Source: Escherichia coli (lineage in GTDB: Bacteria > Pseudomonadota > Gammaproteobacteria > Enterobacterales > Enterobacteriaceae). Taken from it: DNA of 64,000 bases. The stretch is from assembly GCF_009931435.1 (NCBI RefSeq), contig NZ_CP043414.1; one strand, written 5' to 3'. Position 1 is the first letter of the stretch. Each line of letters begins with the position of its first letter. A program made the position numbers. This document shows positions 6,001-9,000 of this stretch, one piece after another.

Positions 6001-9000
6001 CACGCAACCGTTTTCCTTGCTCTCTTTCCGTGCTATTCTCTGTGCCCTCTAAAGCCGAGAGTTGTGCACCACAGGAGTTTTAAGACGCATGTCTTCCCGC
6101 AATAATCCGGCGCGTGTCGCCATCGTGATGGGGTCCAAAAGCGACTGGGCTACCATGCAGTTCGCCGCCGAAATCTTCGAAATCCTGAATGTCCCGCACC
6201 ACGTTGAAGTGGTTTCTGCTCACCGCACCCCCGATAAACTGTTCAGCTTCGCCGAAAGTGCCGAAGAGAACGGTTATCAGGTGATTATTGCGGGCGCAGG
6301 CGGCGCAGCGCACCTGCCGGGCATGATTGCCGCCAAAACGCTGGTGCCAGTGCTGGGTGTGCCAGTACAGAGCGCCGCACTGAGCGGTGTCGATAGCCTC
6401 TACTCCATCGTACAAATGCCGCGCGGCATTCCGGTGGGTACGCTGGCGATTGGTAAAGCTGGCGCGGCAAACGCGGCGTTACTGGCAGCACAAATTCTTG
6501 CGACTCATGATAAAGAACTGCACCAGCGTCTGAATGACTGGCGCAAAGCACAAACTGATGAAGTGCTGGAAAACCCGGACCCGCGAGGTGCGGCATGAAA
6601 CAGGTTTGCGTCCTCGGTAACGGGCAGTTAGGCCGTATGTTGCGCCAGGCAGGCGAACCGTTAGGCATTGCTGTCTGGCCGGTCGGGCTGGACGCTGAAC
6701 CGGCGGCGGTGCCCTTTCAACAAAGCGTGATTACCGCTGAGATCGAACGCTGGCCGGAAACCGCATTAACGCGCGAGTTGGCACGCCATCCAGCCTTTGT
6801 GAACCGCGATGTGTTCCCAATTATTGCCGACCGTCTGACTCAGAAGCAGCTTTTCGACAAGCTTCACCTGCCGACTGCACCGTGGCAGTTACTTGCCGAT
6901 CGCAGTGAGTGGCCTGCGGTGTTTGATCGTTTAGGTGAACTGGCGATTGTTAAGCGTCGTACTGGTGGCTATGACGGTCGCGGTCAATGGCGTTTACGCG
7001 CCGATGAAACCGCACAGTTACCGACTGAATGCTACGGCGAATGTATTGTCGAGCAGGGCATTAACTTCTCTGGCGAAGTATCGCTGGTTGGCGCGCGCGG
7101 CTTTGATGGCAGCACTGTGTTTTATCCGCTGACGCATAACCTGCATCAGGACGGTATTTTGCGCACCAGCGTCGCTTTCCCGCAGGCCAACGCACAGCAG
7201 CAGGCGCAGGCCGAAGAGATGCTGTCGGCGATTATGCAGGATCTGGGCTATGTGGGCGTGATGGCGATGGAGTGTTTTATCACTCCGCAAGGTCTGCTGA
7301 TCAACGAACTGGCTCCGCGTGTGCATAACAGTGGTCACTGGACACAAAACGGTGCCAGCATCAGCCAGTTTGAGCTGCATCTGCGGGCGATTACCGATCT
7401 GCCGTTACCGCAACCGGTGGTAAATAGCCCGTCAGTGATGATCAACCTGATTGGTAGCGATGTGAACTATGACTGGCTGAAACTGCCGCTGGTGCATCTG
7501 CACTGGTACGACAAAGAAGTGCGTCCGGGCCGTAAGGTGGGGCATCTGAATTTGACCGACAGCGACACATCGCGTCTGACCGCAACGCTGGAAGCCTTAA
7601 TCCCGCTGCTGCCGCCAGAGTATGCCAGCGGCGTGATGTGGGCGCAGAATAAGTTCAGTTAACCTGGTGCTCATATTCTTGCCGGATGCAGCGTGAACGC
7701 CTTATCCGGCCTACTAATCCGGTACCCATTGTAGGCCTGATAAGACGCGTCAAGCATCGCATCAGGCATGGTGCGCCGATTACCGGATGCGGCGTGAACG
7801 CCTTATCCGGCCTACTAATCCGGTACCCATTGTAGGCCTGATAAGACGCGTCAAGCGTCGCATCAGGCATGGTGCGCCGATTACCGGATGCGGCGTGAAC
7901 GCCTTATCCTACTACCAATCCGGTACCCATTGTAGGCCTGATAAGACGCGTCAAGCGTCGCATCAGGCATGGTGCGCCATATGCTGGATGCTCCCATCAC
8001 GACAGCGAAATACAGGTCCCCGCTTCGCCCGCCAGCGTCTCTTCAATCCGCGATAACGCCCCAATCCACGCAGGTTTACCACGGCTTCTGACATAGCCAC
8101 TCACCGCCGTTACCTTCGGTCCCATCGCCCCATCGGCTTTGGCAAATGGCGCTAACTCATCCGGTGTGGCATGGCGAATGGCGCGTTGCTGCGGCGTTCC
8201 CCAGTTTTCATAAACCGCGTCAGCATCGGTGAGGATCACCAGTCCATCGGCATTAATCTGCTCGGCAAGCAACGCCGCGGCGAGATCTTTATCAATCACC
8301 GCTTCACTCCCTGCTCCGTTATCCATCACCGGAACACCGCCGCCGCCACTGCAAATCACCACATGCCCCTCTTTGAGCAACAACTCGATGGCTTCGCTGT
8401 CGAGAATTTTACGAGGCTGGGGAGATGCCACCACCCGGCGTAAATATTTGCCATCACGCTTCATTTTCCAGCCGTAAGCCGTTTCCAGTGCCTCTTGTTC
8501 TTCTGGCTGATAAACCGGGCCGATAAACTTCTCTGGCTGCAAAAACGCCGGATCATCAGACGAAACCTCAATGCGCGTCAGCACCGTCGTGACAGGCGGC
8601 ATCTGCGGCTGTGCGCTCAAGCTCTGCGCCAGCATATAGCCAATCATCCCCTGGCTTTCCGCCACCAGCACATCCAGTGGATACGGTTCGACCTCTTTCC
8701 ACGCCAGATTCTGTAACGCCAACAATCCCACCTGCGGCCCGTTGCCGTGAACAATCGCCAGCCGATAAGTACGCGCCAGGCGCGCCAGCGCGGGAACAGC
8801 ACTGGCAATGTTGCGATATTGATTTTCTGCCGTCAGCGCCTCACCGCGCTGGAGTAAGGCATTGCCCCCAAGAGCTACAACCAGTGTTTTCATGGTGTTC
8901 CTTGTAATAATTGTTGACCAAGCCAGAACCCCAGCAGCGTATCAGCCCCTGACGTATGCCCCAGCGCCAGCAGCGAATCAATCGCCACAGCGGTACGTTT

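What the first reader, a model, noticed from the sequence alone, without database searches (positions are those of the whole stretch)
7681..7985. Triplicated REP/BIME unit between purK and ybcF
Three tandem ~100-bp units, each an inverted REP pair, differ by a few substitutions. This is an ordinary E. coli feature but could act as a transcription-attenuating or mRNA-stabilising structure between convergent transcription units, and copy number may vary between strains.
Basis: seen in the sequence. Interest (0 to 1): 0.2.

Follow-up and report, generated by a model that had tools for sequence, protein, structure and literature searches.

The report
Ordinary three-unit BIME-2 REP array
This is an ordinary E. 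coli "BIME-2" repeat: three head-to-tail copies of a pair of inverted REP hairpins between the ends of the convergent genes purK and ybcF, a well-known element whose copy number at this spot runs from 0 to 5 among sequenced strains.

Summary
Window 7681-7968 holds three tandem units of 100-101 bp. Each unit is a Y-type REP, a 16-nt linker, an inverted Z2-type REP and a 14-nt linker. This is the textbook BIME-2 architecture.

The array fills the 334-bp gap between the stop codons of purK (+, ends 7662) and ybcF (-, stop 7997-7999). No intrinsic terminator and no IHF site is present. Both strands fold far better than shuffled sequence. Two minus-strand Z2/Y pairs pass the Rfam naRNA4 gathering score, which mainly re-identifies the Y/Z2 pair.

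In complete E. coli genomes this gap carries no REP, 1, about 1.5 (K-12), 2, 3 or 5 units, in two linker haplotypes. The seven closest haplotypes carry two units. The window has an extra copy of the purK-proximal unit, and none of 5,426 complete genomes has this exact allele.

The most likely role is a two-way 3'-end RNA structure: a barrier to exonucleases plus a partial, Rho-assisted stop to read-through. A gyrase site and a near-neutral selfish repeat are live, non-exclusive alternatives. Nothing here is new in kind, so interest is low.

The parts
6595..7662 (+). purK coding sequence (355 aa), stop codon TAA at 7660-7662. The array lies in its 3' untranslated region.
   Evidence: ORF list. 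RefSeq annotation of homologous regions as purK.
7663..7680 (.). 18-nt spacer between the purK stop and the first REP.
   Evidence: Direct reading.
7681..7714 (+). Y-type REP no. 1. It has GCAGCG instead of GCGGCG, an A.C mismatch in the upper stem. The same variant occurs in strain 2020CK-00188.
   Evidence: hairpin -16.8 / -17.9 kcal/mol.
7715..7730 (.). 16-nt linker TAATCCGGTACCCATT between the CTAC end of the Y REP and the GTAG end of the Z2 REP.
7731..7767 (-). Z2-type REP no. 1 (consensus orientation on the - strand). It has GCATC instead of GCGTC, a C.A mismatch in the upper stem.
7768..7781 (.). 14-nt linker ATGGTGCGCCGATT between units.
7782..7815 (+). Y-type REP no. 2, intact.
   Evidence: -18.2 / -18.5 kcal/mol.
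7816..7831 (.). 16-nt linker, identical to that of unit 1.
7832..7868 (-). Z2-type REP no. 2, an exact match to the consensus.
   Evidence: -20.4 / -21.3 kcal/mol.
7869..7882 (.). 14-nt linker between units 2 and 3.
7883..7915 (+). Y-type REP no. 3, degenerate. The base of the stem is lost (TATCCTACTAC) and the hairpin is weakened. It is the ortholog of the second unit of the two-unit allele in strain RMDEC465.
   Evidence: (-12.8 / -11.8 kcal/mol).
7916..7931 (.). 16-nt linker CAATCCGGTACCCATT.
7932..7968 (-). Z2-type REP no. 3, an exact match to the consensus.
7969..7996 (.). Right flank ATGGTGCGCCATATGCTGGATGCTCCCA: a linker plus the degenerate 5' remnant of a fourth Y REP. It forms a 28-nt gap before the ybcF stop.
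   Evidence: (other alleles end in GCCGGATGCTC).
7997..8893 (-). ybcF (carbamate kinase, 298 aa here), stop TGA at 7997-7999. The array is also its 3' untranslated region.
7734..7812 (-). Y2 to Z2-1 pair read on the - strand. It matches Rfam naRNA4 (RF02564) at 75.2 bits against a gathering score of 59.5.
7835..7913 (-). Y3 to Z2-2 pair read on the - strand. It matches Rfam naRNA4 at 66.4 bits against a gathering score of 59.5.

Best explanation
Identity (shown, about 0.97). The feature is a BIME-2 array: three tandem Y-REP / inverted Z2-REP units in the shared 3' region of convergent purEK and the ybcF operon. It is the same element that K-12 carries at this locus, with a different unit number.

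Origin of the third unit (inferred). Relative to the nearest two-unit allele, the purK-proximal 101-bp unit was duplicated. Possible routes are unequal recombination or slippage between the near-identical units, or TnpA-REP-mediated unit addition.

Function (inferred from other loci, about 0.5). When transcribed from either side, the array folds into a row of stable hairpins. These block 3'-to-5' exonucleases, which fixes and protects the 3' ends of both mRNAs. They also pause RNA polymerase so that Rho can partially terminate read-through. This limits purEK transcription running antisense into ybcF, and the reverse. The exact number of units is probably close to neutral.
For: Anatomy:
- Period-101 array of 3.0 copies.
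- Y and Z2 motifs in alternating orientation, with 0-1 mismatches in five of six REPs and 0.00 matches expected by chance.
- Short 16-nt and 14-nt linkers and no IHF consensus.
- Rfam Y/Z2-pair model passed twice.
- This matches the published definition of BIME-2: z2 plus y, multiple tandem copies, short linkers, and copy number variable between strains (PMC3333891).

Position: the array starts 18 nt after the purK stop and ends 28 nt before the ybcF stop, and the genes converge.

No intrinsic terminator on either strand: 0 found against 1.0 expected. The array is therefore the only structured element available to end or protect the two transcripts.

Folding: -161.2 kcal/mol on the + strand (z = -7.2) and -165 on the - strand (z = -6.4). 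Single REP hairpins are -12 to -21 kcal/mol on both strands.

Mechanism by analogy. REP325, a six-unit Y/Z2 array, was shown to be a partially Rho-dependent attenuator and an mRNA stabiliser. About 60% of E. coli REPs lie between convergent genes. Convergent pairs with a REP are more highly expressed than pairs without, and 78 REPs lie within mapped bidirectional terminators (bioRxiv 10.64898/2026.03.23.713779).

Origin. Window units 1 and 2 both match unit 1 of RMDEC465 best (96.6% and 97.7%). Window unit 3 matches its unit 2 (97.7%) and shares the damaged Y tail.
Against: - There are no expression or 3'-end data for this strain or locus.
- Alleles without any REP exist: 3 of 60 sampled genomes by gap length, with one read directly. 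Unit number ranges from 0 to 5. A particular array is therefore dispensable.
- Genome-wide, REP-terminated mRNAs do not have longer half-lives, and reporter insertions did not always stabilise (same preprint).
- REP sequence lacks the C>G skew of classical Rho sites. The array has C 87 and G 79 on the + strand.
- Hairpin pairing at this locus is 95% conserved, but compensatory change is not above the shuffle control: 142 of 500 shuffles reach the observed value.
- The hairpins are equally required by the DNA-level models (gyrase, TnpA-REP), so folding does not discriminate between them.
Confidence: 0.6

Rival explanations
1. DNA-level role. The array is a strong gyrase binding and cleavage site, a known property of BIME-2. 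It would remove the positive supercoils that build up where two transcription units converge. This does not exclude the RNA model.
For: Gyrase cleavage sites are significantly over-represented in BIME-2 elements, cut y-type REPs more often than z2, and persist or increase when transcription is blocked (PMC6379681). The array holds three Y REPs and sits between convergent units.
Against: Only a subset of BIME-2 elements carry cleavage sites. Neither purK nor ybcF appears in the two supplementary files of that study that are held as text. REP-less alleles of this gap exist.
Confidence: 0.3
2. Selfish or neutral repeat. The BIME sits in a permissive gap between two gene ends. Its unit number drifts by unequal recombination, slippage or TnpA-REP activity, and it has no selected function at this locus.
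For: Alleles with no REP, 1, about 1.5, 2, 3 and 5 units occur, in two linker haplotypes. K-12 carries a unit with an internal deletion. Window REPs Y1, Z2-1 and Y3 carry stem-weakening changes. Units at one locus resemble each other more than units in other strains do, 95.6% against 89.2%, as expected from local amplification or conversion. Covariation is not significant. TnpA-REP recombines and adds BIME units in vitro (PMC3333891).
Against: A BIME is present at this locus in a cryptic-clade Escherichia (E1V33) and in about 93% of the sampled E. coli genomes, so it is old and retained. The one REP-less allele that was read carries other palindromes, including a hairpin followed by a T run just after purK. 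This suggests that some 3' structure is always kept. Five of six REPs are within one mismatch of consensus.
Confidence: 0.35
3. Source of naRNA4-like small RNAs. The - strand transcript would be processed into roughly 80-nt Y/Z2 RNAs that, together with HU, bridge cruciform DNA and condense the nucleoid.
For: Two - strand matches to Rfam RF02564 exceed the gathering score, at 75.2 and 66.4 bits against 59.5.
Against: The Rfam model essentially describes any Y/Z2 pair; another single BIME in the window scores 83.6 bits. Later work found no stable HU-cruciform-naRNA4 complex, no change in the nucleoid on deleting or overexpressing REP325, no REP-REP contacts in Hi-C, and about 1-2 RNA copies per cell. 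The - strand here depends on ybcF transcription, which is low in K-12 RNA-seq: baseMean 73 against 1170 for purK.
Confidence: 0.05
4. The unit number in the window is an assembly artefact: a mis-resolved short tandem repeat, with two units as the true state.
For: No complete genome among 5,426 has this three-unit allele, and the seven nearest haplotypes have two units. A 303-bp array is at the limit of what short reads can resolve.
Against: The three units can each be told apart. Unit 1 has three private differences from unit 2, and unit 3 has a private indel and substitutions. A collapse or expansion artefact would produce identical copies. Three-unit and five-unit alleles exist in finished genomes.
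Confidence: 0.05
5. Translation control. A REP hairpin close behind a stop codon stalls the terminating ribosome and lowers protein output. Liang, Rudd & Deutscher 2015 reported this for REPs within about 15 nt of the stop (from my own knowledge; not read here).
For: The first REP begins soon after the purK stop.
Against: The gaps are 18 nt (purK) and 28 nt (ybcF), both beyond the reported distance.
Confidence: 0.04

Closest known systems
BIME-2 elements of E. coli, including the element at the purK-ybcF gap of K-12 itself
   Same: Same locus and same flanking genes. Same Y and Z2 REP types in alternating orientation, and the same GGTACCCATT linker haplotype as K-12. Short linkers, tandem units, and copy number variable among strains.
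   Different: K-12 has Y-Z2-(truncated Y)-Z2 in a 194-bp gap, whereas the window has three full units in 334 bp. This exact allele is absent from 5,426 complete genomes, and the nearest haplotypes have two units.
REP325 / naRNA4 (Rfam RF02564), the six-unit Y/Z2 array between yjdM and yjdN
   Same: Same unit design. Two - strand pairs pass the Rfam gathering score. Expected to share its demonstrated behaviour as a partial Rho-dependent attenuator and mRNA stabiliser.
   Different: Half as many units. It lies between convergent genes rather than within a tandem operon, so it would act on two transcripts, one from each strand. The nucleoid-condensing function that gave the family its name is now disputed.
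BIME-1 (also called RIP/RIB elements)
   Same: Also a pair of inverted REPs in an intergenic 3' region.
   Different: BIME-1 is Y plus Z1, with a long conserved L linker that carries an IHF site, and occurs as a single copy. Here the partner REP is Z2, the linkers are 14-16 nt, no IHF consensus is present and the unit is repeated.
Intrinsic bidirectional terminators between convergent genes
   Same: A palindromic structure placed between two converging stop codons, readable from both strands.
   Different: No U/T run follows any stem, and the terminator scan found 0 sites. Any termination must be factor-assisted.
REPIN / RAYT systems (REP doublets mobilised by a REP-associated tyrosine transposase)
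   Same: Inverted REP doublets with a GTAG/CTAC foot, thought to be multiplied by TnpA-REP.
   Different: No transposase gene was sought or seen near the array, and the mechanism of unit gain cannot be read from the sequence.

Membership tests
REP (palindromic unit) elements of E. coli | Conserved Y, Z1 or Z2 sequence motif | tested here: met
   Five of six REPs are within one mismatch of the Y or Z2 consensus, with 0.00 expected by chance. The Y consensus equals the published one. Y3 is degenerate, with 4 differences.
REP (palindromic unit) elements of E. coli | Strictly extragenic position, usually a 3' untranslated region | tested here: met
   The array lies between the purK stop (7662) and the ybcF stop (7997).
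REP (palindromic unit) elements of E. coli | Imperfect palindrome that forms a hairpin with an internal mismatch, on either strand | tested here: met
   Each REP folds as 7 bp, internal loop, 4-5 bp. Energies are -12 to -21 kcal/mol on both strands. 95% of cells are paired across 19 units from 10 genomes.
BIME-2 | Built of Y and Z2 REPs in alternating (inverted) orientation | tested here: met
   Order is Y(+) Z2(-) Y(+) Z2(-) Y(+) Z2(-).
BIME-2 | Short linkers, with no long L linker carrying an IHF site | tested here: met
   Linkers are 16 and 14 nt. No WATCAANNNNTTR on either strand of 7663-7996.
BIME-2 | Occurs as multiple tandem copies whose number varies between strains | tested here: met
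   3.0 copies here. Alleles with no REP and with 1, about 1.5, 2, 3 and 5 units occur at the same locus in other genomes.
BIME-2 | Bound and cleaved by DNA gyrase in vivo | not testable with these tools
   Reported for a subset of BIME-2 elements only. This locus was not found in the supplementary text that is held.
BIME-1 | Y plus Z1 REP with a long L linker and an IHF site, single copy | tested here: not met
   The partner REP is Z2, no IHF consensus is present, and the unit is repeated three times.
Rfam naRNA4 (RF02564) | Covariance-model score at or above the gathering threshold | tested here: met
   7734-7812 (-) scores 75.2 bits and 7835-7913 (-) scores 66.4 bits, against 59.5. The + strand and the outer copies fall below threshold.
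Rfam naRNA4 (RF02564) | Transcribed and processed into a discrete small RNA that binds HU | not testable with these tools
   No expression data are available. The function itself is disputed.
Intrinsic (Rho-independent) terminator | G+C-rich stem followed by a T/U run | tested here: not met
   0 terminator-like sites in 7300-8400 on either strand.
Rho-dependent terminator | C-rich, G-poor unstructured loading region, and sensitivity to bicyclomycin | tested here: inconclusive
   The array has C 87 and G 79 and is highly structured, so it is not a classical loading site. REPs are nevertheless reported as partial Rho-dependent terminators. Sensitivity to bicyclomycin cannot be tested here.

The most novel reading that the evidence does not exclude
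Unit number at this gap would be a selected, lineage-specific dial. The natural series of 0, 1, 1.5, 2, 3 and 5 units would set, in graded fashion, two things: how much of the strong purEK transcription leaks antisense into the weakly expressed ybcF / anaerobic allantoin operon, and how long both mRNAs survive. The window's private third unit would then be an adaptive change rather than drift.
Probability: 0.1. Interest if true: 0.35.

Novelty: already known. Interest (0 to 1): 0.1.

Why it matters
By itself it matters little. It is one of several hundred REP/BIME elements in an E. coli genome, and it behaves as the literature describes.

Its one practical use is as a natural allelic series. 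The same gap between the same two genes carries 0 to 5 units, in two linker haplotypes, across sequenced strains. That series could be used to measure how the number of REP units affects termination, mRNA stability, gyrase recruitment and antisense read-through. The function of these elements is still debated.

The array is also a recombination and insertion target. In one strain an IS1397-family element sits in the loop of the first REP, and the genes beyond it are missing.

Tried and rejected
- **Covariation test** on 19 distinct units from 10 genomes. 95% of cells are paired, but only one pair has two pair types, and the result is no better than shuffles (142 of 500). The locus gives no independent covariation support for the hairpins.
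- **RefSeq K-12 annotation** of 550300-552700. It lists only coding sequences, so the official REP name for this element could not be retrieved.
- **Scan of one genome per species** for the linker plus Z2 junction. The single hit was Escherichia sp. E1V33, which has a single unit. The source genome of the window was not found, and its closest complete E. coli relatives are only 98.1% identical over 12 kb.
- **Literature search** for purK + ybcF + REP found no paper. The gyrase Topo-seq supplements held as text mention neither gene.
- **Intrinsic terminator and promoter scans**. No terminator was found, and the only promoter-like site lies inside purK at chance level.
- **IHF site search** found none, so BIME-1 is rejected.
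- **ORFs overlapping the array** (7655-7870 on the - strand, 7686-7835 on the + strand, 7787-8056 on the + strand). I treated these as artefacts of reading through repeats and did not pursue them.
- **SK0189 junction.** I tried to place the gsk-side junction of the IS1397-associated deletion within the window. gsk is not in the window, so the extent of the deletion relative to the window is unknown.
- **First crude REP scanner**. It mislabelled or skipped some REPs, so the architecture was read by eye instead.
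Full report

Yes. Tandem Repeats Finder reports a single array at 7682-7978: period 101, 3.0 copies, 96% matches, no indels, score 552. 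The repeat finder places three in-register copies at 7679-7779, 7780-7880 and 7880-7980.

Units 1 and 2 differ at only three positions: 7681/7782, 7690/7791 and 7756/7857. Unit 3 is one base shorter and has an altered Y-REP tail.

The flanking ORFs are a 355-aa ORF ending at 7662 on the + strand and a 298-aa ORF on the - strand whose stop is at 7997-7999. In more than 5,400 RefSeq E. coli genomes the homologous genes are annotated purK and ybcF (carbamate kinase), and they converge.

**2. Anatomy**

Each unit has four parts:
- a Y-type REP on the + strand;
- a 16-nt linker (TAATCCGGTACCCATT);
- a Z2-type REP in inverted orientation;
- a 14-nt linker (ATGGTGCGCCGATT).

| REP | Coordinates | Match to consensus |
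|---|---|---|
| Y1 | 7681-7714 | 1 mismatch |
| Z2-1 | 7731-7767 | 1 mismatch |
| Y2 | 7782-7815 | 1 mismatch |
| Z2-2 | 7832-7868 | exact |
| Y3 | 7883-7915 | 4 differences; base of stem lost |
| Z2-3 | 7932-7968 | exact |

Shuffled sequence gives 0.00 expected matches. The Y consensus I used is identical to the published one (PMC12306157). The Z2 consensus came from memory, but it is backed independently by the Rfam covariance model built on Y/Z2 pairs.

After the last Z2 comes a linker and a degenerate stub of a fourth Y REP, which runs up to the ybcF stop. The first REP starts 18 nt after the purK stop, and the last ends 28 nt before the ybcF stop.

There is no IHF consensus in the gap. 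There is no stem-plus-T-run terminator on either strand: 0 found against 1.0 expected.

Every REP folds as a hairpin on both strands, at -12 to -21 kcal/mol. Y3 is the weakest. Y1 and Z2-1 each carry one stem mismatch.

The whole gap folds to -161 kcal/mol on the + strand (z = -7.2) and -165 on the - strand (z = -6.4). Neighbouring Y and Z2 REPs can also pair with each other.

This is exactly the published definition of BIME-2: z2 plus y REPs, short linkers, tandem multiple copies and strain-variable copy number (PMC3333891). It is not BIME-1, which is z1 plus y with a long IHF-binding linker and occurs as a single copy.

**3. Rfam**

Two - strand Y/Z2 pairs exceed the naRNA4 (RF02564) gathering score of 59.5: 7734-7812 at 75.2 bits and 7835-7913 at 66.4 bits. 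The + strand and the outer copies fall below it.

A single BIME elsewhere in the window (35241-35318) scores higher still, at 83.6 bits. The hit therefore re-identifies the Y/Z2 pair and does not reveal a special RNA gene.

**4. Comparison across genomes**

I read the purK-ybcF gap in 12 complete E. coli genomes and one cryptic-clade Escherichia.

| Allele | Gap length | Example |
|---|---|---|
| No REP; other palindromes instead | 152 bp | HYM1 |
| Y REP followed by a different palindrome | 119 bp | 2020CK-00188 |
| One unit | 126-138 bp | MB06231, F374, Escherichia sp. E1V33 |
| Y-Z2-(truncated Y)-Z2 | 194-204 bp | K-12 type |
| Two units | 233 bp | RMDEC465, strain B1 |
| Three units | 332 bp | 21AR0173, DS566-1 |
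| Five units | 532-533 bp | SK1144, GPEC1165 |

There are two linker haplotypes:
- GGTACCCATT with a 37-nt Z2. The window, K-12, RMDEC465 and E1V33 carry this one.
- CCAACACCGAC or CCGACACCGCC with a 36-nt Z2 variant. The other three-unit and five-unit alleles carry this one.

To estimate frequencies I searched with only the two flanks (300 nt each) and listed 60 records at even steps down the ranking of 5,425. Classes were assigned by gap length, and one example of each class was read directly.

| Class | Count of 60 |
|---|---|
| One unit | 23 |
| Y plus other palindrome | 1 |
| REP-less | 3 |
| K-12-like, about 1.5 units | 20 |
| Two units | 4 |
| Three units | 1 |
| Five units | 7 |
| Gap disrupted | 1 |

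Records with near-identical flank scores share the same length. For example, all sampled O157:H7 records match one another, all K-12 derivatives but one match one another, and six of the seven five-unit records match one another. The polymorphism is therefore lineage-level, not rapid phase-type variation (inference).

**5. The window's allele**

The best full-length matches are seven genomes at 97.2-97.9% identity. They cover the 901-nt query within only 800 bp, so they carry two units. The next records are one-unit alleles at 95% or less. No complete genome among 5,426 has this haplotype with three units.

Unit-by-unit comparison shows the relationship. Window units 1 and 2 are both closest to RMDEC465 unit 1 (96.6% and 97.7%). 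Window unit 3 is closest to RMDEC465 unit 2 (97.7%) and shares its damaged Y tail. The purK-proximal unit has therefore been duplicated.

Unit 1 carries GCAGCG, which is also seen in the single Y REP of 2020CK-00188. That strain has the closest purEK sequence, at 99.3%. Recombination between haplotypes may have contributed, but this is speculative.

Units within one genome are more alike than units from different genomes, 95.6% against 89.2%. This fits local amplification or conversion.

The source of the window is an Escherichia lineage with no close complete relative: the best identity is 98.1% over 12 kb.

**6. How it most likely works**

*Shown.* The element is a BIME-2 array, positioned as the common 3' region of two convergent transcription units. 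It is strongly structured on both strands, and no intrinsic terminator is present.

*Inferred from other loci.* REP325 has the same unit design with six units. It attenuates downstream transcription about ten-fold in a partly Rho-dependent way, and it protects the upstream mRNA. About 60% of E. coli REPs lie between convergent genes. Such gene pairs are more highly expressed than REP-less pairs, and 78 REPs lie within mapped bidirectional terminators (bioRxiv 10.64898/2026.03.23.713779).

I therefore favour a two-way 3'-end element: an exonuclease barrier plus a partial, factor-assisted stop. In K-12 RNA-seq tables from that preprint, purK is far more expressed than ybcF (baseMean 1170 against 73). 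The main practical effect would then be to limit purEK read-through running antisense into ybcF.

*Rivals.* None of these excludes the RNA model.
- A gyrase site. Cleavage sites are enriched in BIME-2 elements, favour y-type REPs and do not depend on transcription, but only a subset of elements is affected and this locus is not documented.
- A near-neutral selfish repeat. REP-less and partly deleted alleles exist, some stems are damaged, and covariation is not significant.

The HU/naRNA4 nucleoid model is now poorly supported. Translation control by a stop-proximal REP is unlikely, because the gaps are 18 and 28 nt (the distance rule is from my own knowledge of Liang et al. 2015).

**7. Verdict**

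The feature is an already known kind of element at an already known position. The private third unit is a trivial allelic variant. Interest is low (0.1).

The one useful by-product is the documented 0-to-5-unit allelic series at a single locus, which could serve as a natural experiment on REP dosage.

Noticed in passing
L016 3801-3900 and 5200-5360 (E. coli SK0189, NZ_AP046539.1); equivalent to window 7696/7697: An IS1397-family insertion sequence sits exactly in the loop of the first Y REP after purK (GCCGGATGCGGCGTGA|TGAACTGC...). Its other end abuts half of a Z2 REP next to gsk. ybcF and the genes beyond it are therefore missing in that strain. IS1397 is known to insert specifically into REPs (PMC1525189). 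This looks like an IS-associated deletion running from one BIME to another.
   Followed up: partly
L008 314-465 (E. coli HYM1) and about 3 of 60 sampled genomes: A REP-less allele of the same gap (152 bp). It carries a hairpin followed by a T run directly after purK (CTGCTT...AAGCAGTTTT) and a CCCTCTCCCC...GGGGCGAGGGG palindrome in place of the BIME. Some structured element seems always to be present between the two genes.
   Followed up: no
L011 2664-2782 (E. coli 2020CK-00188; R32_14_1F has the same 119-bp gap length): A further allele: a Y REP with the same GCAGCG variant as window unit 1, followed by a different palindrome (TTATCCGACCTG...CAGGTCGGATAA). This strain has the purEK sequence closest to the window (99.3%).
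   Followed up: no
window 29701-29786, 35238-35321, 38299-38384: Three further single Y/Z2 BIME units. The one at 35241-35318 (- strand) gives the best naRNA4 score in the window, 83.6 bits. The purK-ybcF array is the only multi-unit one.
   Followed up: no
window 16077-16143 (-) and 29164-29252 (-): Rfam matches above gathering score to STnc480 (85.5 bits) and AgrB (53.6 bits).
   Followed up: no
window 7997-8893 (-): ybcF is 298 aa here and in RMDEC465, against 297 aa in K-12 and most strains. The usual stop is changed (CTA to CGA on the + strand, compared with E1V33), so translation runs one codon further to TGA. The stop is thereby pushed against the array's right flank.
   Followed up: partly
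window 6000-20000: No complete RefSeq E. coli genome (5,426) matches 8000-20000 better than 98.1%. For purEK (6000-7660) only two genomes reach 99.3%. The window comes from an under-sampled Escherichia lineage, and its identity was not established.
   Followed up: partly
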